A stretch of DNA of 51,878 nt from assembly GCA_964427585.1 (NCBI GenBank), contig CAYRVC010000002.1, positions 130,864-182,741 on the forward strand. Direction: 5' to 3'. The stretch's first letter is position 1, and the number at the start of each line of letters is the position of its first letter. A program made the translations under genes and the position numbers. Below are positions 6,666 through 41,859 of this stretch, piece by piece. The stretch comes from an uncultured Candidatus Saccharibacteria bacterium (GTDB lineage: Bacteria > Patescibacteriota > Minisyncoccia > Minisyncoccales > Staskawiczbacteraceae). Under the pieces are notes generated by a model that was given only the letters and a program-made list of their open reading frames with translations, did not search any database and was not told where the DNA came from.

Positions 6666-8156
6666 ATGTTAATTCCGAAAGAAATAAAATCTATTTTGGA
6701 AAAACTCCAAAAAGCGGGTTTTGAGGCGTATATCGTGGGCGGATGCGCGCGGGATTTTTTACTGGAAAGGGAGCCTAAAGATTGGGACATAACCACAAAC
6801 GCCAAGCCGGAAGAAATACAAAAAATATTTCCCGACAGTTTTTATGAAAATAGTTTTTTGACGGTAAGCGTCAGAACCGGCAGTAAAAACGCAAAATTGC
6901 GGGAAATTGAAATTACAACCTACCGCTCTGAAGCCAAATATTCCGATAAAAGGCACCCTGACCAGGTAAAATTCGCCAAAACCCTGGAGGAAGATTTGGC
7001 AAGAAGGGATTTCACCATTAACGCTATTGCGATAGATTTGAAAATTAATAAATTGAGAAATTCATTGAAAATTGAAAATTGTAAATTGAAAATTGTTGAC
7101 CCGTTTGGCGGACAGGAGGATTTGAAAAATAAAACAATCAGGGCAGTTGGCAACGCGGAGGAAAGGTTTAACGAGGATGCCTTAAGGATGATGAGGGCAG
7201 TGAGGTTTGCGGCAACTTTAAATTTTGAGATTGAGAAAAATACGGCAGAGGCAATTAAAAAAAATTCTCCGTGGATGAAAGAGATTTCCGAAGAAAGGAT
7301 AAGGGACGAGTTTTTAAAGATTATAATGTCAGAAAGGGCGGCCGAAGGAGTGGAGATTTTAAGAGAATTGGGATTGTTAAAACATATTATTCCCGAGCTT
7401 GAAGAAGGCTTCGGGGTTTCTCAGAATAAGCACCATATTTACGACTGCTATCAGCACCTTTTAAAATCATTGGAATACGCCGTAAAAAAGAAATTCAATC
7501 TGCATGTGCGGTTGGCTGCGCTTTTTCACGATATTGCCAAACCAAGGGTTAAAAGGGGCGAAGGCGAAGAAGCGACATTTTATAACCACGAAATCGTGGG
7601 GGCTAAAATGACATTTTCAATATTAAACCGCCTGAAATTTCCCAAAAAAGACGTTGAAAAAATTTCAAAGCTGGTAAAATTCCATTTGTTTTATTATAAT
7701 GTGGGCGAGGTGTCGGAATCTTCTGTGAGGAGATTGGTAAAAAACGTGGGGTCAGAAAACATAGACGAGCTTTTAGAGGTAAGGCAGGCTGACAGAATAG
7801 GATCCGGGGTTCCCAAGGCGGAGCCCTATAAACTAAGGCATTTAAAGTACATAATAGAAAAAATCAGCAAAGACCCGATATCAGCGAAAATGCTTAAAAT
7901 AAACGGAGACGATATAATGAAACTTCTAAAAATAAAGCCGGGGCCGAAAGTCGGCCATATTTTAGACATTCTTTTGAAGTCCGTTATAGACGACCCGGAA
8001 AAAAATAAAAAAGAATTTTTAGAAAAAGAAACAGTAAGGCTGGGAAATCTAAGCGACAGAGAGCTTGAGAAATCGGCCCAAGGATCAAAAGAAGAGATAG
8101 AAAAGATAGAAACCAAAAAAGACCAAATGACCAAAGAAAAATACTGGGTAACTTAA
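6666..8156 (+). CDS. cca: CCA tRNA nucleotidyltransferase / poly(A) polymerase family with HD domain
   Basis: YIVGGCARD, DWDITTNA, EDLARRDFTINA, EDALRMMRAVRF, LFHDIAKP motifs. Confidence 0.9.
   Translation: MLIPKEIKSILEKLQKAGFEAYIVGGCARDFLLEREPKDWDITTNAKPEEIQKIFPDSFYENSFLTVSVRTGSKNAKLREIEITTYRSEAKYSDKRHPDQVKFAKTLEEDLARRDFTINAIAIDLKINKLRNSLKIENCKLKIVDPFGGQEDLKNKTIRAVGNAEERFNEDALRMMRAVRFAATLNFEIEKNTAEAIKKNSPWMKEISEERIRDEFLKIIMSERAAEGVEILRELGLLKHIIPELEEGFGVSQNKHHIYDCYQHLLKSLEYAVKKKFNLHVRLAALFHDIAKPRVKRGEGEEATFYNHEIVGAKMTFSILNRLKFPKKDVEKISKLVKFHLFYYNVGEVSESSVRRLVKNVGSENIDELLEVRQADRIGSGVPKAEPYKLRHLKYIIEKISKDPISAKMLKINGDDIMKLLKIKPGPKVGHILDILLKSVIDDPEKNKKEFLEKETVRLGNLSDRELEKSAQGSKEEIEKIETKKDQMTKEKYWVT
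7038..7094 (+). repeat. AT-rich TTGAAAATT-type repeat tract inside the cca coding sequence
   Basis: ttgaaaatt/gaaaatt/gtaaatt units encode KINKLRNSLKIENCKLKI between NAIAID and VDPFGG. Confidence 0.75.
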
Positions 8157-8191
8157 TAAAATTAAAAATCAAATATCAAAAATCAAAATTA

Positions 8192-8265
8192 CGGAGCGTG
8201 GTGTAACGGCAACATGCACCCTTCGGGAGGGTGAGATTTTGTGGGTTCGAATCCCACCGCTCCGA
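8192..8265 (+). tRNA. tRNA-Pro(CGG)
   Basis: CGGAGCG/CGCTCCG acceptor, CACCC-TT-CGG-GA-GGGTG anticodon arm, GTGGG-TTCGAAT-CCCAC T-arm. Confidence 0.92.
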
Positions 8266-8315
8266 CAGATTTTAATTTTAAAAATAATTAATAATAAATA
8301 TTAGAAGTTAAAATT

Positions 8316-8735
8316 ATGGCAACTTGGATATTTTTTGCGTTGGGATCCGCGGCTTTTGCCGCATTGGTGGCGATTTTCGGGAAAATAGGAATTACTGGCA
8401 TTGATTCTACTTTAGCCACGACTGTCAGGGCGGTTATTATGGCAGTGTTTCTTGTAATCGTCGCGTTGTTGTTCGGCAAAGGGCAGTTAATCGGAACAAT
8501 AACATTAAGGCCGTTTTCTTTTATTGTTTTGTCGGGGGTGGCGGGAGCTCTTTCCTGGCTTTGTTATTTTTTTGCCTTGAAATACGGCCCGGCTGCCGGG
8601 GTGGCGGCTTTAGACAGATTAAGCGTTGTTTTTGTTTTGTTTTTTGCCGCTTTGTTTTTAGCCGAAAAGCTCACCTGGAAAACCTTAATCGGCAGCATTT
8701 TAATCACAGCCGGCGCTTTATTCATGGTTTTATAG
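8316..8735 (+). CDS. EamA/DMT family small transporter
   Basis: Hydrophobic 139 aa with IDSTLATTVRAV, LSWLCYFFALK, LDRLSVVFVL. Confidence 0.88.
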   Translation: MATWIFFALGSAAFAALVAIFGKIGITGIDSTLATTVRAVIMAVFLVIVALLFGKGQLIGTITLRPFSFIVLSGVAGALSWLCYFFALKYGPAAGVAALDRLSVVFVLFFAALFLAEKLTWKTLIGSILITAGALFMVL

Positions 8736-8793
8736 GTAATTTTTCATTAAATTAAAAATTTGAAATTAAAAATTCCCCGCCAAGGCGGGGCCT

Positions 8794-8864
8794 GGGCCTA
8801 TAGTAAAATGGCATTACGCGGCATTCGCATTGCCGAGTTCCGGGTTCGACTCCCGGTGGGTCCA
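8794..8864 (+). tRNA. tRNA-Ala(CGC)
   Basis: GGGCCTA/TGGGTCC acceptor with the G3:U70 alanine determinant; CGGCA-TT-CGC-AT-TGCCG anticodon arm. Confidence 0.93.
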
Positions 8865-8876
8865 CTAAACTGAGTT

Positions 8877-10421: not shown

Positions 10422-10471
10422 TAATTCTGCGTTATAATAAAAAAATAATTAGCATTAATGATTTTAATATT

Positions 10472-11434
10472 ATGGATAATCAACAAACAACAAAAAGAAA
10501 TCTGCCAAGGGACGTGTTTTTGCACCTTCTGGCCATAATCACGCTTTACTGGTCGGCAGTAAGTTTTGTGACTTTACTGTGGCAGTTTATTAATTATTTT
10601 TTTCCGGATGTTTTGGCGAGATATTACAGTTACACGGGTTTTACGGGCCCCATAAGGTTCGCGGTTTCCTCTTTGATAATTGTTTTTCCCGTTTTTATGC
10701 TGGTTTCCTGGTATTTGAATAAAATCTACAGGAGAGAAACCGCGGTCAGGGAATCGAAAATAAGGAAGTGGCTGATTTATCTGACTTTGTTTATTGCCTC
10801 TTTGATTATAATAGGAGACCTGATTGCTGTAATAAACATGTTTTTGGGAGGGGAAATAACCATAAGGTTTATACTAAAAGCCTTTTCCGTGCTTTTAGTG
10901 GCCGGATTCGTTTTTGGATATTATTTAGATGATGTTCGGCGCGAAACCGTTACAGGATTGGCAAAGCCTTTTGCTTTGGCCTCGGGCGGTTTGGTTTTGA
11001 TTGCCGTGGTGTCAGCTTTCTTTATAGTTGGTTCGCCGGCAACAGCCCGCCTAATGCAGATTGACCAGCAAAAAATTTCAGACTTGCAGAACATCCAGTC
11101 GCAGATTGTGAACTATTGGCAAAGGAAAGAACAGTTGCCTCCAAAGCTTTCCGACCTCCAGGATACAATATCCGGTTTCAGGGTCCCCGCAGACCCGGAG
11201 ACGGGGGCCTCTTATGAATACAATATAAAAGACCAGACAGCCTTAATATTTGAATTGTGCGCCACTTTTAACAGAGAAGGAAAAGATATCAACAGATATT
11301 ATGAGCCGGCTCCCTTTTCAGGGCCTGTAAAGGGAGGCCAGTATTCCAACTGGGACCACGAGGCAGGCCGTGTTTGCTTTGAAAGAAATATTGATAAAGA
11401 ACTATATCCCCCTATCAATAAAACAAAAGAATAA
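10472..11434 (+). CDS. DUF5671-like membrane protein
   Basis: PRDVFLHLL, IRFAVSSLIIVFPVF, IRKWLIYLTLF, FLGGEITIRF, then DQQKISDL...IVNYW and ELCATF. ATG at 10472 preferred. Confidence 0.7.
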   Translation: MDNQQTTKRNLPRDVFLHLLAIITLYWSAVSFVTLLWQFINYFFPDVLARYYSYTGFTGPIRFAVSSLIIVFPVFMLVSWYLNKIYRRETAVRESKIRKWLIYLTLFIASLIIIGDLIAVINMFLGGEITIRFILKAFSVLLVAGFVFGYYLDDVRRETVTGLAKPFALASGGLVLIAVVSAFFIVGSPATARLMQIDQQKISDLQNIQSQIVNYWQRKEQLPPKLSDLQDTISGFRVPADPETGASYEYNIKDQTALIFELCATFNREGKDINRYYEPAPFSGPVKGGQYSNWDHEAGRVCFERNIDKELYPPINKTKE

Positions 11435-11514
11435 GGTAATTTTGGGAATAGTATAGCTTGTGGATATCTTGTTAGGAAATAGTATAAAAAAGTGGGGGAA
11501 AATTGTGTTTTGCT

Positions 11515-12456
11515 ATGTTAAAAAATTGTGGAGTAGTTGAACCTGAAGACAAAAGATACCCTCTGAAATTGAAGGAAGCGCTAAAAAAATTGGCGCCCAG
11601 TTTGGGGCCGAAAAGATTGTATTATAAAGGAAACTGGCCCCTCGACGCGGCTCAGGGCGGGTCTGATATTTTCAAAGAGTGTTTGGCGGTTGTGGGGTCA
11701 AGGCATTTGACTTCTTATGGCAGAAGGGCGACAGAACAATTGGTAACAGAGGCGGCGGCCACAGGCATTACAATAGTTTCCGGATTTATGTACGGCGGCG
11801 ATGAAGCTGCCCATTCTGCTGCTGTCAAATGCGGAGGCAGAACAATTGCCGTTATGCCCTGCGGAATAAACATAATACACCCTGAAAGCCAAAAAAAGCT
11901 TTACGAGGAAATTTTGGAAAATAACGGCCTTATAATTTCTGAATATGAAAATGATTTTTTGCCTCAAAACTGGTCTTATCTGCAAAGAAACCGCCTGGTG
12001 GCCGGCTTAGCTAAGGCGGTTTTAGTTACCGAAGCTGCTTTAGACAGCGGAAGTCTGATTACGGCAGGATATGCCAAAAAATTCGGCAGAAAAATTTTTG
12101 CATTGCCGGGCCAAATTTTCAGCGAAGTTTCTAAGGGAACAATAAAATTGATAAAAGAAGGGGCCGAGCCGGTAACGGAGGCAAACGATATTTTAAGTTT
12201 TTTCAAGGTTTTAGTCAATCCGGTTAGAGCGGAAGGAAAAGGGTCTCCGACACCCCACAATTGGGGGGTGTCGGAGACCCCCCTAATTGCTTCTTTAGAG
12301 CGGAAAATTCTTGACCAGCTAAAACGCGAACCAATGGAAGCCGACGACATGGCAAGATTATTTAGTGTACCAGTCGCCCAACTCGGCACCACATTGTCTT
12401 TAATGCAATTAAAAGGTCAAATTTCAAATGACTCTGGAAAATATTATATAAATTAA
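11515..12456 (+). CDS. dprA: DNA-processing protein DprA
   Basis: LAVVGSR, TIVSGFMYGGD, SEYEND, QRNRLVAGL, EAALDSGSLITA, C-terminal winged helix; linked to comM and yraN. Confidence 0.92.
   Translation: MLKNCGVVEPEDKRYPLKLKEALKKLAPSLGPKRLYYKGNWPLDAAQGGSDIFKECLAVVGSRHLTSYGRRATEQLVTEAAATGITIVSGFMYGGDEAAHSAAVKCGGRTIAVMPCGINIIHPESQKKLYEEILENNGLIISEYENDFLPQNWSYLQRNRLVAGLAKAVLVTEAALDSGSLITAGYAKKFGRKIFALPGQIFSEVSKGTIKLIKEGAEPVTEANDILSFFKVLVNPVRAEGKGSPTPHNWGVSETPLIASLERKILDQLKREPMEADDMARLFSVPVAQLGTTLSLMQLKGQISNDSGKYYIN
11638..11658 (+). repeat. Small palindromic repeat (CCnTCG..GCTCAGGGC family) in dprA
   Basis: cccctcgacgcggctcagggc resembles cccttcggcaagctcagggc in nusA (16824-16843). Confidence 0.6.
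12241..12280. repeat. Perfect 16-bp inverted repeat inside dprA
   Basis: gggtctccgacacccc-N8-ggggtgtcggagaccc, in frame (GSPTPHNWGVSETP). Confidence 0.9.
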
Positions 12457-12461
12457 TTTTT

Positions 12462-12953: not shown

Positions 12954-12964
12954 AAATAAACTTT

Positions 12965-13351: not shown

Positions 13352-13360
13352 GAAAAAAAT

Positions 13361-15278: not shown

Positions 15279-15309
15279 AAATTTTGTGAGCCCCGAGCTC
15301 ACAAAATTT
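15279..15309. terminator. 13-bp perfect inverted repeat after yraN (probable terminator or repeat element)
   Basis: aaattttgtgagc-cccga-gctcacaaaattt. Confidence 0.6.
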
Positions 15310-15558: not shown

Positions 15559-16917
15559 GTGGACATAAAACTATTTCAAAGAGCGCTGGCGCAGATCGCT
15601 GAAGAAAGGGGTATTCCTCAGGAAAAAATAATAGAAACCCTGGAAGCGGCCATTGCTACAGCCTACAAAAAGGATTACGGCAAAAAGGGCCAGAAAATAA
15701 AGGCAAAATTCAACCCTGTTTCAGGGGATGTTAAGTTTTGGCTGGTAAAGCTGGTTGTTGACGAATCAATGCTTTATACGGAAGAAGAAATAGAAAAACT
15801 TAAAGAAAACAAGCTGATACCCCCAGACGAGCCGGTAAAAAGCGCCGCGGAAGAAGGGTCGGCAGAAGGAGAGGAGCAAAAAAAGTTTATCTTCAATCAA
15901 GAAAAACACATAATGCTAGAAGAAGCCAGAAAGGAAAATCCTAAGATAAAAACAGGGGAGGAATTGGAGATTCCTTTGGTTTCAAAACAGGATTACGGAA
16001 GGATAGCCGCCCAGACGGCAAAACAGGTTATTCTGCAGAAAATAAGGGAGGTGGAAAAAGAAACCATTGCCTCAGAATATAAATCAAAGGAGGGGGAAAT
16101 AATTTCCGGAATCGTGCAAAGGATAGAGGGTCAGACTGTTTTTATCGACATAGGCAAAACTCTCGGCGTTTTGACGAGGGAAGAACAAATTCCCGGCGAG
16201 TTTTATCGTTCGGGCCAGCGTCTAAAGCTCTATATCTTAAAAGTGGAGGATACGCCAAAAGGGTCTGTTGTCATATTATCCCGTGTTTATCCCAAACTGA
16301 TATCAAGGCTTTTTGAGCTGGAGGTGCCGGAAATAGCCTCTGGAGCCGTTGTGATAAAAGCCATTGCCAGGGAACCGGGTTTCAGAACAAAGGTGGCTGT
16401 TGAGTCAGAGGAACAGGGCATTGATCCTATCGGCTCAATGGTCGGCCAGAGAGGGACAAGAATAATGGCGGTGATAAACGAACTGGGCGGGGAAAAAATT
16501 GACATTGTTGAATGGCGGAAAGAGCCTGAAAAATTTATTGCCAACGCATTGGCTCCGGCCAAAATCACCAATGTTAAAATTGCGGAAAAAAATACGGCGG
16601 TGGTTTACGTCAAAGAAGACCAGCTTTCTTTGGCCATTGGCAAAGACGGCAGGAATGTAAGATTGGCTGCCAACTTAACGGGTTGGAAAATAGATATTAA
16701 GATGGCCGAAGAAAGCGAAGAAGAAAATAAAAAAGAAGATAAAAAGCCAGGAAATAAGGAAGTGGAAAAAGAAGATAAGTCCTCCCCCACCGAGGCTTCG
16801 GCGGGCGAAGGGGAAAAACCGAACCCTTCGGCAAGCTCAGGGCGAGGAAAGAAATCTAAAAAATCGAAAAAAGATTCTGATGATGAAAAATCAGAAGAAC
16901 CAGCGGAGGAAAAATAA
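15559..16917 (+). CDS. nusA: Transcription termination/antitermination factor NusA with low-complexity C-terminal tail
   Basis: GRIAAQTAKQVILQKIRE, S1 domain, AREPGFRTKVAV, GEKIDIV, QLSLAIGKDGRNVRLAANLTGWKIDI. GTG start. Confidence 0.97.
   Translation: MDIKLFQRALAQIAEERGIPQEKIIETLEAAIATAYKKDYGKKGQKIKAKFNPVSGDVKFWLVKLVVDESMLYTEEEIEKLKENKLIPPDEPVKSAAEEGSAEGEEQKKFIFNQEKHIMLEEARKENPKIKTGEELEIPLVSKQDYGRIAAQTAKQVILQKIREVEKETIASEYKSKEGEIISGIVQRIEGQTVFIDIGKTLGVLTREEQIPGEFYRSGQRLKLYILKVEDTPKGSVVILSRVYPKLISRLFELEVPEIASGAVVIKAIAREPGFRTKVAVESEEQGIDPIGSMVGQRGTRIMAVINELGGEKIDIVEWRKEPEKFIANALAPAKITNVKIAEKNTAVVYVKEDQLSLAIGKDGRNVRLAANLTGWKIDIKMAEESEEENKKEDKKPGNKEVEKEDKSSPTEASAGEGEKPNPSASSGRGKKSKKSKKDSDDEKSEEPAEEK
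16781..16843 (+). repeat. Two small GC-rich palindromic repeats in the nusA tail
   Basis: cctcccccaccgaggcttcggcgggcgaagg (16781-16811) and cccttcggcaagctcagggc (16824-16843). Confidence 0.6.
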
Positions 16918-17050
16918 ATAAAATTAAAAATTAATATAAACTAATTTTAAGTTTTCAATTTTAAATTTTAATTGAATAGCCTAATTTTAAATTTTAAAAT
17001 TTATTTATTTAGACTTCATTTAAAATTTAGAATTTTAAATTTTAAATTCG
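16918..17050. repeat. AT-rich AAATT/AATTT repeat tract between nusA and hppA
   Basis: About 130 bp made almost entirely of aaatt/ttttaa units. Confidence 0.7.
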
Positions 17051-17051: not shown

Positions 17052-19049
17052 ATGAGCCTCATTTATTTTCCGATTATTGTTTCGCTTTTTGCGATAATTT
17101 ATGTTTTTTTCCTTATAGCAAAAATCAGAAAGTCCCCTGTTGCCGGGGGCAAGGCGATAGCCATTACGCAGGCCGTGCAGGAAGGAGCTGTTTCATATTT
17201 GAAAAGGCAGTATAAAACAGTCGGCTCCGTGGCTGTTGTTTTATTTTTTGTGCTTTTTGTGGCGACGGGTCAGAAAACGGCTTTTGGATTTTTAATCGGC
17301 GCCGTGCTTTCCGGATTTTCCGGATTTGTGGGCATGCTTATTTCCACCCAGGCAAACACAAGGGTGGCCAAGGCCGCTGAAAAAGGATTGAAGCAAGCGC
17401 TTGATCTGTCTTTCAAAGGAGGATTGGTAACAGGGCTTTTGGTGGCGAGTTTGGGATTACTGGCTGTTTCAGGGTATTACTTTTTAACAAAGGATACCCA
17501 GGGCTTGATTGCCTTGGGATTCGGAGCCAGCCTTATTTCTGTTTTTGCCAGAGTTGGGGGAGGCATTTATACAAAAGCGGCTGATGTGGGAGCCGACTTG
17601 GTTGGCAAGGTTGAAAAAGGAATTCCCGAAGACGATCCGAGGAATCCGGCGGTAATAGCCGACCAGGTTGGAGACAATGTGGGAGACTGCGCCGGCATGG
17701 CGGCTGATATTTTTGAAACCTATTCGGTAACCATAATTGCCACGATGCTTTTAGGGACTTTGCTTTTTCCCGCCAGTCCGCAATTTGTCGTGCTGCCCAT
17801 GATTTTGGGGAGCATATCAATTCTGACTTCGGTTGTCGGAAGTTTTTTTGTGAAGCTTGGGGAAAAAAAGAATATAATGGGAGCTATGTACAAAGGCGTT
17901 GCCGCCTGCATTGTTTTATCCGCCATAAGCTTTTATCCTGTTATTTCAAGGATGATGGCAGACCAGGAAATAAGCGCCATTAATCTTTATTTTTCTTCAT
18001 TGGTCGGTTTGCTGATTGCCGCCGGAATGTTTATTATCACAGAATACTACACCTCCAAAAGTTATAAGCCGGTAAAATCAATTGCCAAGGCTTCTGAAAC
18101 TGGTCATGCTACTAACATAATTACCGGGCTGGCTTTGGGAATGAGGTCAACCGCCCTGCCGGTTTTATTGATTGCCGCAGGCACGGTTGTCAGTTTTTGG
18201 CTGGCTGGAATTTACGGGGTGGCTTTGGCCGTAATGGCAATGCTGTCAATTTCAGGCATCGTGGTTGCCGTTGACGCCTACGGCCCGATTACAGACAATG
18301 CCGGAGGAATTGCCGAAATGGCAGGGATGAGCGATAGCGTTAGGGAAATAACAGACGCATTGGATGCCGTTGGCAACACGACAAAATCAGTGACAAAGGG
18401 CTACGCAATCGCGTCTGCCGGTTTGGCGGCATTGGTTTTGTTTTCAGCATATTCGCAGGAAGTGATTAATCTGTCGGGAGTAAATAATATAATAAATTTT
18501 TCATTGGACAACCCCAAGGTGGCCGCAGGCCTTTTAATAGGCGGACTGCTTCCTTATTTGTTTGCTTCTTTTGCGATGTCGGCAGTGGGCAAAACAGCCG
18601 GAAAGGTTGTCGAAGAAGTAAGAAGGCAGTTTAAGCAGATTCCCGGGCTGATGGACGGCACGGGAAAACCCGAATACGGAAAATGCGTTGATATTGTGAC
18701 AAAAGCCGCCATAAGAGAAATGCTGTTGCCTGCTTTAATTCCGGTGTTAGCCCCGATTTTAGTCGGATTTATTTTAGGCCCCGAAGCTCTCGGGGGCATG
18801 TTGATAGGCAGCATCGTAACGGGAATTTTCGTCGGCATTTCAATGACAACCGGAGGAGCGGCATGGGACAATGCCAAAAAATACATTGAAGCCGGAGCTC
18901 ACGGCGGCAAAGGCAGTTTCGCCCATCAGGCGGCCGTCACCGGAGACACAGTCGGAGATCCCTACAAAGACACTGCCGGCCCCGCCATAAACCCGATGAT
19001 TAAAGTACTCAACATCGTCGCCCTTATGATTGTAAGTTTTTTGATATAA
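17052..19049 (+). CDS. hppA: Membrane-bound proton-translocating pyrophosphatase (K+-independent type)
   Basis: [81 protein letters not shown]. Confidence 0.97.
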
Positions 19050-19123: not shown

Positions 19124-19263
19124 TGGATAAATGGGGACAGCCACCATTTTTTTCATACCCGTATTTTACTACAGGGTGTTGCAATTAATTGTTGGATAAA
19201 TGGGGACAGCCACCATTTTTTTCATACCCGTATTTTACTACAGGGTGTTGCAATTAATTGTTG
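19124..19263. repeat. Exact tandem duplication of a 69-bp unit
   Basis: 19124-19192 is identical to 19193-19261; each unit carries the imperfect palindrome aaatggggacagccaccattt. Confidence 0.92.
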
Positions 19264-34389: not shown

Positions 34390-34471
34390 AGTTGATTTTT
34401 TATTTTACTATTTAAAATCAATTAAGTCAATTTGATTTTATGAATATTTGTGATATGGTTAAAATAATAAT

Positions 34472-34544: not shown

Positions 34545-34547
34545 CAT

Positions 34548-36752: not shown

Positions 36753-36825
36753 AATTTCTAATTTTCAATTTTCAAACAAAAAACCGGCGAGAAGCCGGAT
36801 TTCTATGCAAAAATCGTTTTTTTGG

Positions 36826-37131
36826 TTATAATTTGGTGCCCAGCTTTTCGGCAATTTGCTGAAACCACTTTTCGTGCGTGTCGACGCGAAGGTTGACTCT
36901 TGAGGCGACCGTAATAAATTCCTGGCGCAGATCGTCTATTGCTTTAACCAGTTTGTCAACGGAAATAACCAGTGCCCTCACCAATTCCTTTAAGTCGTTG
37001 ATATCGGTTTTAATTTCTTTTTTAAAAACCTTGAATTCTTCTTGGGGCAACATTCTAAAGGATAGATTGTTAAAATCCTCCTTAGTTGCCAGAAACTGCG
37101 TCAATTTTTCGATATCCGAATCCTCAAGCAT
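36826..37131 (-). CDS. Small coiled-coil protein with its own promoter and downstream hairpin
   Basis: LATKEDF...DKLVKAIDDLRQEF...IAEKLGTKL, loosely like 19332/19860; hairpin aaaccggc-gagaa-gccggattt near 36780-36805. Confidence 0.7.
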   Translation of the reverse strand: MLEDSDIEKLTQFLATKEDFNNLSFRMLPQEEFKVFKKEIKTDINDLKELVRALVISVDKLVKAIDDLRQEFITVASRVNLRVDTHEKWFQQIAEKLGTKL

Positions 37132-37146
37132 TTATTATGTGTTTTA

Positions 37147-37174
37147 ATTATAGTGATGAGTATTTATATGTCAA
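37147..37174 (-). promoter_or_regulatory. Consensus sigma70 promoter for 36826-37131
   Basis: TTGACA (37174-37169), 16 bp, TATAAT (37152-37147). Confidence 0.7.
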
Positions 37175-37238
37175 TCCTGGCTTTAATCTTAACACTTGTA
37201 AAATAAAAATCCGATTAAAACCGGATTTTTCAGGCTTT

Positions 37239-38777
37239 CTATTTGCGTATTTTTTCAGTGACCCAAAATCCCATATGTTTGCCCAGCATCAGGCGGATTT
37301 GGGCGTCTAAGGCGGGAAAAGAGCCGAATACGATTAATGTCACAGGCAACAGCAGCCACTGTAAAAATATGGACATCCTTTTTCTCAATCTTATATAGCG
37401 CCCGAATTTTTTAGGCAGAGGCGGCAGAAGCATCGTGCTTAAAATGGCGGAAACGAACATTCCGATAAGAGAGACTGTCATTATTCTGCTGGTAAGAATG
37501 GGAAGGTTGAAGGAAAGGATGGTAAGGTTGAATTTTTCCCCTCCTAAAATTAATGGCAGCCATCCTAAAACAAACAGCAGGAGGGCGGCTGTGGACCATG
37601 ACCAGAAGCCGTCGATTATCGTGTACAAATGGGAGATTTTTTTCAAAGAGGAAATTTTTTTGTTTTTCCAGAAACCGAAAATTATGTAAGGTATTTCGCT
37701 ACAGCCCCAGGCCCAGCGTTTTTGCTGTTTATACTGGTTTATTATTGTTTTAAAAAAGCTTAAAGTCATTACGGCATCCATTGAAACCAGGTAATAAATG
37801 GGCACTACCCGGTAATCGCCGTCGTAGCAAAGATAAGCCCTCCAGAAGATTCTGGAATCGTCGGAAACAACGTTTGCCGGATATCCCACTTCAAAAAATA
37901 CCTTGCCGGGAATGGAGTGGGAAGAATATGTGGTAAGCTTTTCCGCCCTTTCCTGCTGAATCATCTGCCAAAAGGTGTTGGATGTTGAGACAACCCTGGC
38001 AAAGGCGGAAGCAGACCAGATGTTATTGTTATAAACCGGAATAGGCTGATAACTTGCTTTTAAAGGATTTTCCATTGCCAGGTAATACCATGTGAGGCAC
38101 GCAAAATATTGAGGATAAACTTTAGTGTCTATGTCAAAACTTGAAACCAAGATATTCTCGTAAGGAATTTTTGATTCGTCTATGAATTTTTTGGCTTCTT
38201 TCCCTGCCCAGGCGACATTAGACCCCTTCCCGCTTATTTCCCCAGGTATATTGTCTGGGTGGGCGGATATCAAAAATTTATAAAAATTGGAGCCATATTT
38301 TTTTGCGATGGTTTCTGCCGCTTCTTCTGCCTTTTGTCCGGCCCGTTTTTCTATTGCCAGGACAACTATCATTTTTTCTTTCGGATAATTTGAATTTACC
38401 AAAGAATCAATGGTTTCTTTTATTATTTCCGGGCCCTCTTTGTATGTGGGCAGGATTATAAGGTGGTATATATTTTTCCATTCGCGGTTTTTTTTAAGAG
38501 CCCTCATCCAGTCTTTTTTCAAATGACTTTTTATTTTAAAGTAGCTTACGATCTGGTGCAGAGAAAAATAAACTACCCTGAAAAGATAATAAAGGCAGAA
38601 ACAAATTATAAATATGGCCACGTATGAGGGAATCAGCCAAGAAAAAACAAGAACTCCGAAAAGAGTTCCCAAGCTTAAAATTCCAGGAATGGTTTCCAGC
38701 AGGCGGTATAACAATCTTTCTTTTTGGTTTTTTATATCGCCGGCTTTTGAAATATCCAGATAATCTTTTTTTTCCAT
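37239..38777 (-). CDS. Processive-type GT2 family membrane glycosyltransferase
   Basis: HLIILPTYKE, SGKGSNVAWA, SSFDIDT, VVSDDSRIFW, QQKRWAWG, flanking TM helices. ATG at 38777; the track start runs through tRNA-Glu. Confidence 0.88.
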   Translation of the reverse strand: MEKKDYLDISKAGDIKNQKERLLYRLLETIPGILSLGTLFGVLVFSWLIPSYVAIFIICFCLYYLFRVVYFSLHQIVSYFKIKSHLKKDWMRALKKNREWKNIYHLIILPTYKEGPEIIKETIDSLVNSNYPKEKMIVVLAIEKRAGQKAEEAAETIAKKYGSNFYKFLISAHPDNIPGEISGKGSNVAWAGKEAKKFIDESKIPYENILVSSFDIDTKVYPQYFACLTWYYLAMENPLKASYQPIPVYNNNIWSASAFARVVSTSNTFWQMIQQERAEKLTTYSSHSIPGKVFFEVGYPANVVSDDSRIFWRAYLCYDGDYRVVPIYYLVSMDAVMTLSFFKTIINQYKQQKRWAWGCSEIPYIIFGFWKNKKISSLKKISHLYTIIDGFWSWSTAALLLFVLGWLPLILGGEKFNLTILSFNLPILTSRIMTVSLIGMFVSAILSTMLLPPLPKKFGRYIRLRKRMSIFLQWLLLPVTLIVFGSFPALDAQIRLMLGKHMGFWVTEKIRK

Positions 38778-38854
38778 GGTGGCCCCAACCGGATTTGAAC
38801 CGGTGTTCTCAGCTTGAAAAGCTGGTGTACTGGACCAGGCTATACGATGGGGCC
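38777..38854 (-). tRNA. tRNA-Glu(TTC)
   Basis: GGCCCCA/TGGGGCC acceptor, loop TT-TTC-AA, T-loop TTCAAAT, encoded CCA. Confidence 0.93.
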
Positions 38855-38915
38855 GTACTGAATTTCGTAATTCAAGGTATGTATTCAATTTTACATAGAA
38901 AACTGAAAAAATCAA

Positions 38916-40538
38916 CTATTTTTTTAGAATTATTGCCGTATCGTCTTCGTAAATTGTCTGCCAGCCGAGGTTGGTGAGTTCTTTGTAAAGATTTTTTTCT
39001 TCGTCCATAGAATTACGGAAAACATAGTTAAGCAGGCGGTATTTTTTGATGAAATTTTTTATTTTGTTATTCCTGTTTTCCATAGGATTATCTTTTATGG
39101 TTCTGGACAAAGCGGCCATTTTAATGTCATATTTTTCCATTATTTTTTCAAAACCTTCCTCTGCGTCATATATTTTAAGATAATCTCCAAACGCGAATTG
39201 GCCGTTTTGCCGCCAACTCGGCATCCGGCCGTCAATGAAATATTTTCTTTCCGGTATTTTCCATATCAAATATCCGCCCCAGCGGTATTCGTTGAATAAG
39301 TTGTCTTCTTGGGGCAATGTTTTAAGAAAAGGAATTGCCTTTTCCGGATAATCGTCCGCCCAGCTGTCGCCGAAAAAATCCGGCAGGAAATTATGGAAAA
39401 ATCCATAGGTTAAAAAAATAAAAACCAATGCCAGTTCAAGAACTAATTCCCTTTTTTGGGAAAAATTGAGGGATTTTAAGGTTTTTGGCAGGTTGGATTT
39501 TATGTACAAGGCTGTTTCGTTTAAAATTTCGCTTAAAACGGGAATGGTAATAATGACAAAAAGCAAAAAATGCCTGGCGCTGGCCATGGCAAGGGAAAAG
39601 AAAAAAAGCGAGACAATAATTTGGTTGAATTCCACTTTTCTGTAAAACACAGCCAATAAAACGGCGAATACTGCTATGTACAAAGATATGAACATATGAA
39701 ATCCAAGAGAGAAAAGCGGGAACCATTCCACAATATTGAATCTTAAAAAGTTGTCCCCGATTGTCCTGAAAACTTCTTCGTAAATCATTAGTCCGTAGGG
39801 GTTTATAATCGTGGCAAGAAAAGAAAACAGGAGAATAAAAAACAGGGCTGAAATTTTTTTCCAAGGTTGTTCTTCAAAATAAAGATTGTTTACCCCCACA
39901 CCAAACGAGCGATGGCTGGTGCCCGCTTTTTTGTCTCTCGTTATGGTGTGGGGGTAAATTTTTTTGAAAATTTCAGCCAGAAGTTCTATAAATAAAATAA
40001 CAAGGCCGGCAAAAAATCCGGCATGCAGGTTAGTCCACAAAATAAACATCAAGGGCAGAAAATAAGCCGACCTTGAGGAACGGCTTAAAAAATCATTTAT
40101 TGTTTTCCATAAAACCGCCACAAAGAACACGGTTATAATTTGGAGCCTTATTCCTAAAAAATTGACTGTGGCGAGGTATCCGAAAATAAATATTATTGTA
40201 AAAATCCATAATTTTTGGCTTCTGTTTCCGACAACGAAAAAAGACAAAGCATGGATAGAAAGAAAAATAAGCAGAAGCAAATCGGCTCCGGAAATTGAAT
40301 GGATTTTGTAAATCAAAACATCTGCCAGCCATTCATGGTCAATCCACGGAAAATCAGGCATAGTGTAAGAATACCAGTCTTTGTAAGGCGCGCCTTTCTC
40401 CAATATCAGCTCGCCTGTTTTCAAGTGCAAGCCGAAATCAGGGTCTGTTGATGAACGCAGGCCAAAAAAGCCGAGAGAAATCATTAATATGAAAACCGCC
40501 GGCAGCAAGAAAAATCTTGATATTTGTATTTTTTCCAT
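38916..40538 (-). CDS. Polytopic membrane protein, GT-C-fold glycosyltransferase-like
   Basis: DPDFGLHLKTGELIL..G.P..D.YSYT...WIDHEWL, LWTNLHAGF, TIINPYG, FNEYRWGGYLIW, FIDGRM. Confidence 0.65.
   Translation of the reverse strand: MEKIQISRFFLLPAVFILMISLGFFGLRSSTDPDFGLHLKTGELILEKGAPYKDWYSYTMPDFPWIDHEWLADVLIYKIHSISGADLLLLIFLSIHALSFFVVGNRSQKLWIFTIIFIFGYLATVNFLGIRLQIITVFFVAVLWKTINDFLSRSSRSAYFLPLMFILWTNLHAGFFAGLVILFIELLAEIFKKIYPHTITRDKKAGTSHRSFGVGVNNLYFEEQPWKKISALFFILLFSFLATIINPYGLMIYEEVFRTIGDNFLRFNIVEWFPLFSLGFHMFISLYIAVFAVLLAVFYRKVEFNQIIVSLFFFSLAMASARHFLLFVIITIPVLSEILNETALYIKSNLPKTLKSLNFSQKRELVLELALVFIFLTYGFFHNFLPDFFGDSWADDYPEKAIPFLKTLPQEDNLFNEYRWGGYLIWKIPERKYFIDGRMPSWRQNGQFAFGDYLKIYDAEEGFEKIMEKYDIKMAALSRTIKDNPMENRNNKIKNFIKKYRLLNYVFRNSMDEEKNLYKELTNLGWQTIYEDDTAIILKK
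39889..39958. repeat. 70-bp palindromic element inserted in frame in the GT-C-like gene
   Basis: Perfect 15-bp arms tttacccccacacca / tggtgtgggggtaaa plus inner aacgag/ctcgtt pairing; encodes YPHTITRDKKAGTSHRSFGVGVN. Confidence 0.88.
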
Positions 40539-40593
40539 TATGGTGTTATCTTACATATTATCACTTTTGTTTTACTATTGAAGTGAATAAAAT

Positions 40594-41859
40594 ATGAAAA
40601 TTTTGGCCATTGAAACATCTTGTGACGACACGGCCGTTGCCGCGCTGGAAATAAAGGAAAAAGCATCCCTTTCTTTTGATGTTCTGTCAAATATTGTTTC
40701 ATCGCAGGCCGGGGTGCATAAAAAATACGGAGGGGTGTTTCCCGCCATGGCGAAGAGGGAACATCAAAATAATTTAGTTCCTGTTTTAACGCGCGCGTTA
40801 AAACAGGCCAAATTATTAAATCCCAAATTTCAAATCCCCCGCCTGCGCCAAGGCTTTGGCGGGCAGGCAAATCCCAAAAAAATAATAAATCCTAAATTCC
40901 AAATTATAAGTACGATTTTAGAGCGAGAGCAAGAACTTTGTAAAAAATTAATTCCGTTTTTTAAAAAATATGAAAATCCGGATGTTGATTTAATCGCTGT
41001 AACGCATGGCCCCGGGCTTGAGCCTTGTTTGTGGGTTGGGATAAATTTTGCAAAGGCGATAGCGTATTTTTGGGATATTCCGATTGTGCCGGTAAACCAC
41101 ATAGAAAGCCATCTTTTAGTGAATATTTTGGAGAATAAAAATATAAAATTTCCCGCGATTTGTTTGGTTGTTTCAGGCGGACATACGCAATTGATTTTAA
41201 TGAAAGGCATCGGCAAATACAAAATACTGGGGGAAACGCGGGACGATGCGGCAGGAGAGTGTTTTGACAAATGCGCCAAAATTTTAGGGCTTGGATACCC
41301 CGGCGGTCCTATAATTTCAAAGCTAGCAGATAGACACCCGATGTCTATCAAAAGACTTGATAGACATCGGGTGTCTATCAAACTGCCGAGGCCGATGATA
41401 AATACAAAAGATTATGATTTTTCTTTTTCAGGGTTGAAGACGGCGGTATTATATGCCGTAAAAGAGAGAAAACGAGTGTGGTCAAATTCCCACGATCGTA
41501 GAAATTTAACCACGCTAAAATTTAAACAATATCAGCAAGAAATGGCGGTCGAGATTCAGCAGGCGATAATTGATGTTTTGATAAAAAAAACAATCAAAGC
41601 CTCAAAGGATTATAAGGCAAAAACAATAATTTTGGGCGGAGGCGTTTCGGCCAATAAAGAGCTGCGATTGCAATTTGAATCAAAAATCAAGAATTCCGAA
41701 TCAAAAATAAATTTTTTGGTTCCGCCAAAAAACCTATCGACCGATAACGCGGTAATGACTGCTGTTGCCGGATATTTTAACCGGAAAAATAAAATTGGGA
41801 GAGCTGTTCTCCGAAAGCTTAAGGCTGAGGCAAATTTACGAATTCACCCGGTCAAATAA
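40594..41859 (+). CDS. tsaD: tRNA N6-threonylcarbamoyladenosine synthesis protein TsaD with three in-frame repeat insertions
   Basis: LAIETSCDDT, YGGVFP, GPGL, VNHIESH, VSGGHT, DDAAGECFDK, FSFSGLKT, GGVSAN, STDNAVM. 421 aa, longer than the usual ~340. Confidence 0.96.
   Translation: MKILAIETSCDDTAVAALEIKEKASLSFDVLSNIVSSQAGVHKKYGGVFPAMAKREHQNNLVPVLTRALKQAKLLNPKFQIPRLRQGFGGQANPKKIINPKFQIISTILEREQELCKKLIPFFKKYENPDVDLIAVTHGPGLEPCLWVGINFAKAIAYFWDIPIVPVNHIESHLLVNILENKNIKFPAICLVVSGGHTQLILMKGIGKYKILGETRDDAAGECFDKCAKILGLGYPGGPIISKLADRHPMSIKRLDRHRVSIKLPRPMINTKDYDFSFSGLKTAVLYAVKERKRVWSNSHDRRNLTTLKFKQYQQEMAVEIQQAIIDVLIKKTIKASKDYKAKTIILGGGVSANKELRLQFESKIKNSESKINFLVPPKNLSTDNAVMTAVAGYFNRKNKIGRAVLRKLKAEANLRIHPVK
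40811..40905 (+). repeat. Nested repeat insert in tsaD: GC palindrome within AAATCCCAAATT-type repeats
   Basis: aaatcccaaatttcaaatcc-[cccgcctgcgccaaggctttggcgggcagg]-caaatcccaaaaaaataataaatcctaaattccaaatt. Confidence 0.75.
41329..41379. repeat. Perfect 23-bp inverted repeat in tsaD
   Basis: gatagacacccgatgtctatcaa-aagac-ttgatagacatcgggtgtctatc; each arm is itself an 8-bp hairpin. Confidence 0.93.
41475..41516. repeat. 42-bp imperfect palindrome in tsaD
   Basis: agtgtggtcaaattcccacgatcgtagaaatttaaccacgct, centred on acgatcgt. Confidence 0.8.

What the first reader, a model, noticed from the sequence alone, without database searches (positions are those of the whole stretch)
7038..41516. Several unrelated palindromic repeat families inserted in frame in housekeeping genes (RPE-like phenomenon in a CPR genome)
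Seen: at least nine repeat-derived segments lie inside intact reading frames, in cca (7038-7094), dprA (11638-11658, 12241-12280), nusA (16781-16811, 16824-16843), the GT-C-like gene (39889-39958) and tsaD (three). Some families recur between genes (CCnTCG..GCTCAGGGC in dprA and nusA; CC(G/A)AGGCTT(C/T)GGCGGGC in nusA and tsaD), and a related short palindrome is intergenic at 8775-8790. Established: Rickettsia palindromic elements insert into ORFs and add peptide segments. Inference: REP/MITE-like mobility is adding new loops to core proteins here. I am not aware of a systematic description in Parcubacteria, but cannot check.
Basis: partly seen in the sequence, partly recalled or inferred. Interest (0 to 1): 0.72.

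Follow-up and report, generated by a model that had tools for sequence, protein, structure and literature searches.

The report
Palindromic mobile repeats inside CPR genes
Tiny hairpin-forming mobile DNA elements, one kind tied to a REP-type transposase and another built like a miniature transposon, have been fixed in frame inside essential genes of a Parcubacteria (CPR) genome, where they add short extra loops to core proteins.

Summary
Six of the nine listed segments are copies of short repeats that recur in other Patescibacteria genomes and are absent from orthologs. Three are not: the cca heptamer array, the first nusA motif and the third tsaD segment.

The two strongest hairpins in the window lie inside tsaD (41329-41379) and dprA (12241-12280). 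Each is an inverted doublet of a short hairpin with a YCCGA loop. The tsaD unit recurs in unrelated genes and spacers in metagenomes. Identical units flank, and sit in frame inside, a Y1/HUH transposase gene whose best structural match is the E. coli REP-associated transposase. In six loci the hairpin stem co-varies with the gene. The window's own genome (GCA_016181665.1) encodes one about 33 kb upstream.

The element at 39889-39958 is a 58-75 bp MITE-like element with 18-nt inverted ends and a 4-bp TNNA target duplication. It has 42 exact-arm copies in GTDB genomes, about half of them in frame in genes such as uvrA, ftsZ, leuS, pgk and tsaD.

So REPIN/RAYT-like and MITE-like elements colonise coding loops of gene-dense CPR genomes. 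This is a known kind of phenomenon in a new variant and setting. I found no prior description.

The parts
41329..41379 (.). REPIN-like inverted doublet inside tsaD, in frame (peptide DRHPMSIKRLDRHRVSI, aa 246-262). It consists of two 21-nt hairpin units, GATAGACA-CCCGA-TGTCTATC and its complement.
   Evidence: The unit recurs in 11 metagenome contigs in unrelated contexts and flanks a Y1 transposase gene. It falls in a low-pLDDT loop, residues 248-263. No T-tract follows it.
12241..12280 (.). REPIN-like inverted doublet inside the dprA linker, in frame (peptide GSPTPHNWGVSETP). Each 16-nt arm carries a TCCGA core.
   Evidence: Orthologs carry different but equally perfect palindromes with the same TCCGAC core at the same place: L046, L047, and a singlet in L048. 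A TCGGA loop also occurs on the REP that flanks the RAYT-like gene in L066.
15279..15309 (+). Intergenic REP singlet AAATTTTGTGAGC-CCCGA-GCTCACAAAATTT, between the UPF0102-like ORF and nusA.
   Evidence: It shares the 13-nt core GAGCCCCGAGCTC with the hairpins flanking the resident RAYT-like gene (L061), and is identical in stem to the REP flanking the RAYT-like gene in L066.
39889..39958 (+). MITE-like 'PHT/GVGV' element in frame in membrane-protein gene 38916-40538(-) (peptide YPHTITRDKKAGTSHRSFGVGVN). It has 18/19-nt inverted ends, ACCCCCACACCAAACGAG and CTCGTTATGGTGTGGGGGT, a 27-nt variable core, and flanks TTTA/TAAA.
   Evidence: There are 42 exact-arm copies in GTDB genomes. The closest homologs lack 12-20 aa at this site.
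40839..40869 (+). Short GC-rich hairpin of the CGCCAAGGCTTYGGCGGGCA family, in frame in tsaD (peptide RLRQGFGGQA). It is embedded in an A/T-rich heptamer array (NPKFQI...NPKFQI).
   Evidence: It is absent from P0003 and other orthologs. The same 22-mer is exact in L002 (TsaD C-terminus) and L049 (DprA linker). It falls in the low-pLDDT segment 81-97.
11638..11661 (+). 24-nt GC-rich element CCCCTCGACGCGGCTCAGGGCGGG, in frame in dprA (peptide PLDAAQGG), of the CCCTTCGACAAGCTCAGGGC family.
   Evidence: The site is empty in L046 and L047. The reverse-oriented relative sits at the identical codon boundary in L049.
16824..16843 (+). Copy of the CCCTTCGACAAGCTCAGGGC family (1 mismatch), in frame in the nusA C-terminal tail (peptide PSASSG).
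   Evidence: It is present in L048 (PSTSSG) and absent in L046. The exact 20-mer occurs in L024 and L044.
16788..16809 (+). Doubtful diverged copy of the CGCCAAGGCTTYGGCGGGCA family in the nusA tail (4 mismatches).
   Evidence: Orthologs have segments of equal length here, so an insertion is not shown.
7064..7095 (+). Not a palindromic element. It is a tandem A/T-rich heptamer array (ATTGAAA x4.6) in frame in cca.
   Evidence: TRF. Arrays of the same kind are intergenic at 8158-8188, 8749-8774 and 16943-17048. This site is a 14-aa insertion versus the Bacillus enzyme, but ortholog L048 has an equal or longer segment.
41475..41516 (.). Eroded palindrome (84%) in tsaD (peptide RVWSNSHDRRNLTTL). 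It is a lineage-specific segment, possibly an old insertion.
   Evidence: The peptide is conserved in P0002, P0003 and P0006, and absent in other orthologs and in solved TsaD structures.
8775..8790 (.). Intergenic GC hairpin CCCCGCCAAGGCGGGG, just upstream of tRNA-Ala. Family assignment is uncertain.

Best explanation
The window comes from a Candidatus Staskawiczbacteria MAG (GCA_016181665.1, or a near-identical genome). It carries several classes of very small hairpin-forming mobile elements that have been fixed in frame in permissive loops and linkers of conserved genes.

Class A: REP/REPIN-like elements (tsaD 41329-41379, dprA 12241-12280, intergenic 15279-15309). Each unit is a 17-25 nt hairpin with a variable 5-10 bp stem and a conserved YCCGA loop, found as a singlet or as an inverted doublet. 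The likely mobiliser is a RAYT-like Y1 (HUH) tyrosine transposase. That gene is itself flanked by its cognate hairpin and contains a copy of it in frame. By analogy with E. coli TnpA-REP and IS608 TnpA, it would cut and rejoin single-stranded hairpin DNA (inferred).

Class B: a 58-75 bp MITE-like element (39889-39958) with 18-nt terminal inverted repeats and a 4-bp TNNA target duplication. Core plus duplication is a multiple of 3. Its transposase is unknown.

Class C: short GC-rich hairpin motifs of about 20-30 nt (tsaD 40839-40869, dprA 11638-11661, nusA 16824-16843). These are dispersed across CPR genomes. Their mobiliser is unknown.

The genome is about 89% coding, so most insertions hit genes. 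Selection would then keep only copies that preserve the frame, lack stop codons and fall in surface loops. The 21-nt REP unit (7 codons, open in two of three frames in both orientations) and the 3n-compatible MITE lengths make such survival likely. The result is lineage-specific peptide loops in TsaD, DprA, NusA and others.

Shown: dispersal, empty sites, the target duplication, the co-variation of transposase gene and hairpin, the HUH fold, and the loop location. Inferred: catalysis by the RAYT-like protein, translation of the inserts, and the selective filter.
For: Hairpin strength: the strongest hairpins of the window are intragenic, at -41.2 and -38.4 kcal/mol against a mean of -8.9 (sd 4.7).

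Class A:
- The 21-mer GATAGASACCCGATSTCTATC was found in 11 metagenome contigs. It is in frame in an RlmN-like gene, a KsgA-like gene and another TsaD; it is intergenic next to a tRNA; and there are three copies around and inside one ORF.
- That ORF matches Pfam Y1_Tnp (35.7 bits, cutoff 23). Its best NCBIfam hit is REP_Tyr_transpos.
- It has the HUH motif MPNH[IL]HLL and a conserved Tyr in YIFTNP.
- An AF2 model of the window genome's copy best matches 4ER8, RAYT bound to a REP hairpin (E 1.7e-5), followed by the IS608 and ISDra2 TnpA structures.
- In six independent genes (L055, L050, L061, L066, L065, L019), an internal in-frame copy has the same stem as at least one flanking copy; both flanks carry a hairpin in L055, L050, L061 and L066, only the upstream flank in L065, and in L019 the internal copy matches the downstream flank while the upstream hairpin has another stem. 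Stems differ between loci, while the loop stays YCCGN or, in L019, CCGGG.
- The gene P0266 lies on JACOYW010000020.1, the same contig as the window's tsaD. L064 is 100% identical to window 39594-42075.
- The gene is syntenic between L061 and L066.
- CCCGA is the commonest 5-nt loop among hairpins with stems of at least 6 bp in 420 kb of CPR DNA: 13 CCCGA or TCCGA loops against 0.9 in shuffles.

Class B:
- 42 exact two-arm matches in GTDB genomes, nearly all Patescibacteria, with up to 6 per genome.
- About half lie in long ORFs of unrelated genes: UvrA, Mur ligase, Asd (two sites), Fpg, LeuRS, Acs, PCMT, YbeY, FtsZ, PGK and TsaD.
- 25 of 44 copies have identical flanking tetranucleotides, against 5.4 by permutation (maximum 14 in 5000).
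- The core length is 2 mod 3 in 19 of 22 ORF copies.

Class C:
- Exact 20-mers and 22-mers occur in unrelated genes of other genomes.
- The empty and filled dprA site differ by exactly 24 nt.

Location: TsaD and DprA alignments show hypervariable hot spots that hold different palindromes in different orthologs. The inserts fall in low-confidence loops of the TsaD model and in gaps relative to solved structures.

Reproducibility: the tsaD hairpin is present in an NCBI MAG and in an independent Logan assembly.
Against: - No transposition event or insertion polymorphism within a population was observed.
- The stems of the tsaD and dprA doublets (GATAGACA, GGGTC) differ from the REP flanking the resident RAYT-like gene (TCGAGC). 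The resident enzyme may therefore not be their mobiliser, unless it reads mainly the loop.
- The dprA arms were not found anywhere else in about 470 kb of CPR DNA.
- The tsaD and membrane-protein sites are hypervariable loops, so the empty sites there are not base-exact.
- The RAYT-like protein scores below NCBIfam's equivalog cutoff (40.6 against 80). It has no sequence-level PDB hit, and its model is only moderate (pLDDT 64.8).
- No autonomous partner with the MITE's inverted ends was found.
- Copy number in the complete source genome is unknown, because only about 67 kb of it was seen.
- Translation of the inserts is inferred from intact frames only.
Confidence: 0.75

Rival explanations
1. 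The palindromes arise in place, by template switching or hairpin-primed duplication during replication, and are kept perfect by intra-palindrome conversion. There is no transposition.
For: At the dprA linker and the tsaD loop, orthologs carry different palindromes whose arms are each perfectly compensated (win, L046 and L047; win, L003 and L002). The dprA arms are unique in 470 kb of CPR DNA. Doublets are inverted copies of a unit that is itself palindromic, as a template switch would produce.
Against: Identical 21-mers occur in unrelated genes and spacers. The hairpins co-vary with and flank a Y1 transposase gene. The MITE-like family has a 4-bp target duplication. Exact 20-22-mers are shared between different genes of different genomes. 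Conversion between arms may still act after insertion.
Confidence: 0.1
2. The hairpins are host-selected cis-acting signals rather than selfish insertions. They could be mRNA stability or processing sites, protein-binding or DNA-uptake-type motifs, or sites that regulate the Y1 protein.
For: All six RAYT-like genes conserve a cognate hairpin in frame at one position in their own ORF. Stem pairing is maintained while the sequence changes. RAYTs are described as domesticated, vertically inherited genes (PMC5581495).
Against: Presence and absence vary among close orthologs. Unrelated elements occupy the same loops. Both orientations occur. There is no common position relative to gene starts or ends. 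No Rfam family matches. No T-tract follows the hairpins, so they are not intrinsic terminators.
Confidence: 0.1
3. The inserts are intervening sequences removed from the mRNA or from the protein, so they add nothing to the mature proteins.
For: There is no direct evidence. CPR rRNA genes are known to carry excised insertions (from my own knowledge), and the hairpins would make good RNase substrates.
Against: Copies inside ORFs keep the frame and lack stop codons. The MITE-like core is 3n-compatible in 19 of 22 ORF copies; among copies outside ORFs, 15 of 23 have a loop length divisible by 3 (loop lengths). The stop-containing frame of the REP unit is never the one used. 'Intergenic' copies do not split genes. 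The frame test is partly circular.
Confidence: 0.04
4. The hairpins are assembly or amplification artefacts.
For: Short perfect inverted repeats can arise as chimeras in amplified DNA.
Against: The same tsaD hairpin is in an NCBI MAG and in an independent Logan assembly of another run. Related elements occur in dozens of independent assemblies, always in frame.
Confidence: 0.01

Closest known systems
REP / REPIN - RAYT systems (E. coli TnpA-REP, Pseudomonas fluorescens REPINs)
   Same: A Y1/HUH tyrosine transposase gene is flanked by its cognate short palindromic hairpins. Inverted doublets form long hairpins. The gene sits in the same genomic context in related genomes. Each gene lineage has its own hairpin variant (PMC3116915, PMC5581495).
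   Different: - Many copies are intragenic and in frame, including one inside the transposase gene itself. Classical REPs are defined as extragenic.
- Units are shorter (17-25 nt). What is conserved is the YCCGA loop; no GTAG or CGTC 5' tag was seen.
- The protein is about 245 aa, with an extra C-terminal region, and scores below the NCBIfam RAYT cutoff.
- Copy number per genome has not been established.
Rickettsia palindromic elements (RPE)
   Same: Palindromic repeats inserted in frame in housekeeping genes of a small-genome, host-dependent bacterium, adding peptide segments at tolerated sites. Several families coexist (from my own knowledge; see also the review PMC10969869).
   Different: RPEs are about 100-150 bp, encode 30-50 aa, and have no identified transposase. 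Here the elements are 21-75 nt (7-25 aa), one class has a candidate transposase, and another has a target-site duplication. Sequence relatedness to RPEs was not tested.
Bacterial MITEs (Correia/NEMIS, ERIC and similar)
   Same: The 39889-39958 family has terminal inverted repeats, a short target-site duplication, multiple copies per genome, intergenic and in-frame intragenic copies, and ends that can supply a -35-like TTGACA (PMC2229807).
   Different: It is much smaller (58-75 bp) than typical MITEs. It has a variable core containing a small GC hairpin. No parent IS was found. One reading frame is strongly preferred (14 of 22).
GC-rich palindromic clusters and double-hairpin elements of fungal mitochondria; palindromic coding repeats of Methanocaldococcus jannaschii
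   Same: GC-rich hairpin elements spreading in an A+T-rich compact genome and tolerated in frame within genes (from my own knowledge).
   Different: The hosts and sequences are different. No transposase link was reported for those. I did not test this comparison here.

Membership tests
REP/REPIN-RAYT | Y1 (HUH) tyrosine transposase with an HUH motif and a catalytic Tyr | tested here: met
   Pfam Y1_Tnp at 35.7 bits against a cutoff of 23. H95, H97 and Y155 are invariant in 33 homologs. The best Foldseek hit is 4ER8, RAYT bound to REP (E 1.7e-5).
REP/REPIN-RAYT | Transposase gene flanked by its cognate REP hairpins | tested here: met
   In 6 of 6 genes at least one flanking hairpin has the same stem as the internal copy, and the stems co-vary between loci; four genes (L055, L050, L061, L066) have a hairpin on both flanks.
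REP/REPIN-RAYT | Inverted REP doublets (REPINs) forming hairpins | tested here: met
   Doublets occur at window 41329-41379 and in L003, L059 and L060, with spacers of 4-9 nt.
REP/REPIN-RAYT | Single-copy, vertically inherited gene | tested here: inconclusive
   The neighbours are the same (exonuclease-HAMP-fpg upstream, S20 downstream) in L061 and L066. Copy number per complete genome was not measurable.
REP/REPIN-RAYT | REPs abundant (tens to hundreds per genome) and predominantly extragenic | tested here: not met
   Roughly half of the copies seen are inside ORFs. Only a few copies occur in about 67 kb of the source genome, and total abundance is unknown.
REP/REPIN-RAYT | Matches the curated RAYT model (NCBIfam NF047646) at its cutoff | tested here: not met
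   40.6 bits against a cutoff of 80. It is the best hit, but below the equivalog threshold.
Rickettsia palindromic elements | In-frame insertion of palindromic repeats in conserved genes, with empty sites in orthologs | tested here: met
Rickettsia palindromic elements | Element size of about 100-150 bp and sequence membership in the RPE families | tested here: not met
   The elements here are 21-75 nt. Sequence comparison with RPE consensus sequences was not possible with these tools.
MITE | Terminal inverted repeats | tested here: met
   The 18/19-nt ends are identical in 44 copies, with a conserved 1-nt bulge.
MITE | Target-site duplication | tested here: met
   25 of 44 copies have identical flanking tetranucleotides (TNNA), against 5.4 expected. 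None of 5000 permutations reached 25. The window copy itself has TTTA/TAAA.
MITE | Multiple dispersed copies per genome | tested here: met
   Up to 6 exact-arm copies per GTDB genome, plus diverged copies and arrays.
MITE | Autonomous IS with the same ends encoding the transposase | tested here: inconclusive
   No long-range arm pairs were found in the fetched loci. The collections could not be searched with long gaps.

The most novel reading that the evidence does not exclude
Patescibacteria may host their own clade of RAYT-like transposases. Its REP hairpin, defined by a YCCGA loop, is built in frame into the transposase gene itself, which could make a self-recognising or autoregulatory unit. 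Its REPINs, together with nano-MITEs, could be a main generator of the lineage-specific insertions that distinguish CPR versions of universal proteins. That would be a general mechanism of protein-loop innovation in gene-dense genomes, not a curiosity of one MAG.
Probability: 0.3. Interest if true: 0.85.

Novelty: new variant of a known kind. Interest (0 to 1): 0.68.

Why it matters
CPR proteins are well known for unexplained lineage-specific insertions. This finding offers a concrete and testable source for some of them.

REP and REPIN elements are by definition extragenic. A RAYT-linked hairpin family that lives largely inside coding sequence, including inside its own transposase gene, extends what such elements can do. 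It also gives a natural system for asking how selfish DNA persists when a genome has almost no non-coding space.

There are practical consequences too. These repeats explain the length heterogeneity and low-confidence loops in CPR orthologs. They can mislead alignment, homology search and structure prediction. They also provide markers for strain-level and lineage-level tracking.

Tried and rejected
- Rfam at gathering thresholds found only tRNAs, so no known RNA family lies at any hairpin.
- An IMG/VR scan for the MITE arms gave 0 hits, so there is no sign of a phage origin. A second viral scan failed on pattern syntax.
- I first took the gene upstream of tsaD in L001-L003 for the ortholog of the window's membrane-protein gene. 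It is in fact the GT2-like neighbour, so that empty-site test was void. I redid it with the representative search.
- The 8-nt direct repeat CAAATCCC flanking the tsaD 40839 element looked like a target duplication. It is part of a heptamer array with period 37, so I rejected it.
- The GC island at 11181-11211 in the DUF5671 gene is not an insertion, and ComM has no insertions.
- 'Intergenic' MITE copies were tested for splitting genes. They do not.
- No transposase is encoded in the window itself (tblastn).
- A sequence search of the RAYT-like protein against the PDB found nothing. Only the fold comparison did.
- A possible link between the MITE's inner stem (ACGAGG...CCTCGT) and the hairpin upstream of the L019 RAYT-like gene rests on one case, so I left it open.
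- No conserved 5' tetranucleotide could be defined for the REP unit. AGCA precedes 6 of 17 copies, with AGCG at a seventh.
- Literature searches found no paper on such elements in CPR. The library is incomplete, so absence is not proven.

Full report
SOURCE AND GENES

Pfam confirms cca (6666-8156), dprA (11503-12456), nusA (15559-16917) and tsaD (40594-41859). The window is about 40% G+C and about 89% coding. A 2.5-kb stretch of NCBI contig JACOYW010000020.1 (GCA_016181665.1, titled Candidatus Staskawiczbacteria) is 100% identical to window 39594-42075. The window is therefore that genome or a near-identical one.

An unbiased RNAfold scan of 60-nt windows gives a mean of -8.9 kcal/mol (sd 4.7). 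The two extreme outliers are both inside ORFs: tsaD 41321-41380 at -41.2 and dprA 12241-12300 at -38.4. The element at 39896-39955 scores -27.4, which equals the best terminator-like hairpins at 46581, 24511 and 31371. The inverted-repeat tool reports the following:
- 23-nt arms at 100% complementarity at 41329-41379;
- 20-nt arms at 95% at 12241-12280;
- 15-nt perfect arms, 40 nt apart, at 39889-39958.

All are in frame. No T-tract follows them, so they are not intrinsic terminators.

Within the window each family is essentially single-copy. Recurrence therefore had to be tested outside the window.

Three of the nine listed segments do not hold up as palindromic insertions:
- The cca segment is a tandem heptamer array (ATTGAAA x4.6), like several intergenic arrays. 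The syntenic ortholog L048 has an equal or longer segment at that site, although the site is a 14-aa insertion relative to the Bacillus enzyme.
- The first nusA motif lies where both orthologs have segments of equal length.
- The third tsaD segment is an eroded palindrome whose peptide is shared by several orthologs.

ORTHOLOG COMPARISONS

TsaD homologs of this clade are 58-68% identical to the window protein and vary from 371 to 439 aa. The alignment shows at least seven hypervariable hot spots.
- The window's RLRQGFGGQA is absent from P0003 and others.
- Its 17-aa doublet peptide lies after ISKLA. There the shortest orthologs, and the solved T. maritima and E. coli enzymes, have 6-9 residues.
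- The same peptide families occur at other sites in other orthologs. HPHT...GVGVN follows SGGHTQLIL in P0011, and SLRQGFGGQA lies near the C-terminus of P0008.
- At the DNA level these are the same elements.

DprA shows the same pattern.
- Site 1, after YYKGNW, is empty in L046 and L047 and holds exactly 24 extra nucleotides in the window.
- L049 holds a 24-nt relative in the opposite orientation at the identical codon boundary.
- In the linker, the window, L046 and L047 each carry a different perfect palindrome sharing a TCCGAC core. L048 carries a single hairpin with a TCGGA loop. L049 instead carries the CGCCAAGGCTTCGGCGGGCAAG motif.

In NusA, the PSASSG motif is present in the window and L048 and absent in L046.

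For the membrane protein, most homologs align in two pieces that break at the insert, and the closest ones lack 12-20 residues there. One homolog (P0361) has the LRQGFGGQ-family element, in another frame, in the same loop.

An AF2 model of the window's TsaD has low-confidence segments at residues 81-97 and 248-263, which are the two inserts. Genes such as comM carry no inserts.

CLASS B: A MINIATURE TIR/TSD ELEMENT

The two arms of 39889-39958, with a 10-40 nt gap, match 42 places in GTDB representative genomes and none in IMG/VR.
- Nearly all hits are titled Patescibacteria: Nealson-, Wolfe-, Harrison- and Staskawiczbacteria, Minisyncoccales, Paceibacteria, and 'Saccharibacteria' MAGs.
- Two contigs are labelled Gammaproteobacteria; these may be mis-binned.
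- One genome has up to six copies.

The anatomy is: T-N-N-A | CCCCCACACCAAACGAG | a co-varying 3-bp stem extension | a 12-40 nt variable core that usually holds a small GC hairpin | CTCGTTATGGTGTGGGGG | T-N-N-A. A 1-nt bulge is conserved.

The flanking tetranucleotides are identical in 25 of 44 copies, against 5.4 by permutation (maximum 14 in 5000). This is a target-site duplication.

About half of the copies lie in long ORFs of unrelated proteins: UvrA (two copies in one gene), an MBL hydrolase, a Mur ligase, Asd at two different sites, Fpg, LeuRS, POR, Wzy_C, Acs, PCMT, YbeY, FtsZ, PGK, an FAD oxidoreductase and TsaD.
- Core length is 2 mod 3 in 19 of 22 ORF copies, so core plus the 4-bp duplication preserves the frame.
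- 14 of 22 use a single orientation and phase, giving xPHTKRG...RYGVGVx.

Intergenic copies do not split genes. Several of them create a TTGACA at their right end. No long element bounded by the same ends was found.

CLASS A: REP/REPIN-LIKE HAIRPINS AND A RAYT-LIKE GENE

The 21-mer of the tsaD arm (GATAGASACCCGATSTCTATC) occurs in 11 metagenome contigs, in varied contexts:
- as a single in-frame unit (DRHRVSI) in an RlmN-like gene;
- as a doublet in a KsgA-like gene;
- as a doublet at the same TsaD site in another organism;
- next to a tRNA gene;
- in L055, three times around one ORF: 43 nt upstream of it, in frame inside it, and overlapping its stop codon in the inverse orientation.

That ORF matches Pfam Y1_Tnp (35.7 bits, cutoff 23). 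Its best NCBIfam model is the REP-associated tyrosine transposase, at 40.6 bits, below the cutoff of 80. It has 1758 homologs at E<=1e-10; all those that carry a source name are named Patescibacteria, Parcubacteria or Staskawiczbacteria transposases.

One homolog, P0266 (71% identical), lies on the same NCBI contig as the window's tsaD, about 33 kb before the window start.

Its AF2 model (pLDDT 64.8) best matches 4ER8, the E. coli RAYT bound to a REP hairpin (E 1.7e-5). The IS608 and ISDra2 TnpA structures follow. The HUH histidines and a Tyr in YIFTNP are invariant in 33 homologs.

In six independent genes (L055, L050, L061, L066, L065, L019) the same hairpin appears next to the gene, on one or both flanks, and in frame inside it, between YEFN and the HUH motif. 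L065 shows it only upstream; in L019 the internal copy matches the downstream hairpin and the upstream one has a different stem.
- Stems differ between loci: GATAGACA, GATAGAGA, TCGAGC, TTGTGAGC, CGTGGAGG, GGGGGAGG.
- The loop stays CCCGA, CCCGT, CCGGG or TCGGA.

The window's intergenic hairpin at 15279-15309 (GTGAGC-CCCGA-GCTCAC) shares its 13-nt core with the hairpins flanking the resident gene, and its stem with those of L066. The gene has the same neighbours in L061 and L066, as described for vertically inherited RAYTs (PMC5581495).

In 420 kb of CPR DNA not selected for this motif, CCCGA is the commonest 5-nt loop among hairpins with stems of at least 6 bp. There are 13 CCCGA or TCCGA loops against 0.9 in shuffles, and two of the 13 are tRNA-Pro anticodon arms.

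The unit is 21 nt. It reads DRHPMSI or IDTRCL forward and DRHRVSI or IDIGCL in reverse. The third frame has a TAG stop and is never the one used.

CLASS C: SHORT GC-RICH MOTIFS

- CGCCAAGGCTTCGGCGGGCAAG is exact in L002 (TsaD C-terminus) and L049 (DprA linker). It has 2 mismatches in the window's tsaD.
- CCCTTCGACAAGCTCAGGGC is exact in L024 (a GatB-like ORF) and L044. It has 1-2 mismatches in L003 LeuRS, L013 and the window's nusA. I expect about 0.02 such hits by chance in 385 kb.
- The dprA site-1 element is a diverged member.
- What mobilises these motifs is unknown.

INTERPRETATION

The best-supported reading is that several families of very small hairpin elements transpose in these genomes. 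Because about 89% of the DNA is coding, the copies that persist are those that keep the frame and land in tolerant loops.

For class A the candidate enzyme is the RAYT-like Y1 transposase. Its catalysis is inferred by analogy.

Points against this reading, or still open:
- The stems of the two in-ORF doublets differ from the resident gene's REP.
- The dprA arms are unique so far.
- No polymorphic insertion was seen.
- Translation of the inserts is inferred only.

Rival explanations are in-situ template switching, host-selected cis elements, excised intervening sequences and assembly artefacts. They are weighed in the Rival explanations section. None accounts for dispersal, the target duplication and the transposase co-variation together. 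Conversion between arms after insertion is still likely, and a function for the hairpin inside the transposase gene remains possible.

COMPARISON AND NOVELTY

The phenomenon works like Rickettsia palindromic elements: in-frame palindromic insertions in core genes. Class A works like REPIN-RAYT systems (PMC3116915, PMC5581495). It is not a straightforward member of either:
- REPs are defined as extragenic, and the RAYT model cutoff is not reached.
- RPEs are several times larger and have no known transposase.

Searches of the paper library for such elements in CPR, Patescibacteria or Parcubacteria returned nothing relevant. The library is incomplete. I therefore rate this a new variant of a known kind.

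Noticed in passing
L061 12066-14382 (JACOYW010000020.1, same genome as the window, outside it): A bAvd-like ORF and a reverse-transcriptase ORF (RVT_1) lie side by side, like a diversity-generating retroelement. They sit 1.3 kb downstream of the RAYT-like gene.
   Followed up: no
L055 2854-2874; L050, L061, L065, L066 and L019 at the equivalent position: Every RAYT-like gene examined carries its own cognate REP hairpin in frame inside its coding sequence, between YEFN and the HUH motif. The stem matches at least one flanking copy.
   Followed up: partly
window 19124-19263: A perfect 69-bp x 2.0 tandem duplication in an intergenic spacer.
   Followed up: no
window 38777-38854 (-): tRNA-Glu lies inside the 5' end of the mechanical ORF 37239-38915(-). 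The real start of that GT2-like gene must therefore be downstream of the tRNA.
   Followed up: no
window 17052-19049: This 665-aa ORF after nusA is an H+-pyrophosphatase by synteny with L048 (Pfam H_PPase there).
   Followed up: partly
window 8158-8188, 8749-8774, 16943-17048 (intergenic); 7064-7095 and 40808-40838 (coding): A/T-rich heptamer arrays (AAAATCA, AAATTAA, AATTTTA, ATTGAAA, AAATCCC) occur both in spacers and in frame in cca and tsaD. The same heptamers give peptides such as NFQFSIFN and NPKSQIPN in TsaD orthologs. This is a second, non-palindromic source of inserted low-complexity peptide.
   Followed up: partly
window 40780-40807: A perfect 14+14 palindrome, CCTGTTTTAACGCG|CGCGTTAAAACAGG, lies in a conserved part of tsaD (VPVLTRALKQ). 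It could be chance or structure-related.
   Followed up: no
L004 1543-1690, L023 4267-4412, L042 3080-3383, L018 2585-2800: The MITE-like element forms head-to-tail arrays, with one copy's right end immediately followed by the next copy's left end. L005 has two copies inside one uvrA ORF.
   Followed up: partly
L003 10080-11285 and 11505-12158: LeuRS is called as two ORFs separated by about 220 nt in this metagenome contig. The first part carries an in-frame LRQAQG motif.
   Followed up: no
window 11638-11661 versus L049 (dprA site 1): The same 24-nt element family occupies the identical codon boundary in opposite orientations in two orthologs. This could reflect independent hits on one target or an in-situ inversion.
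   Followed up: partly
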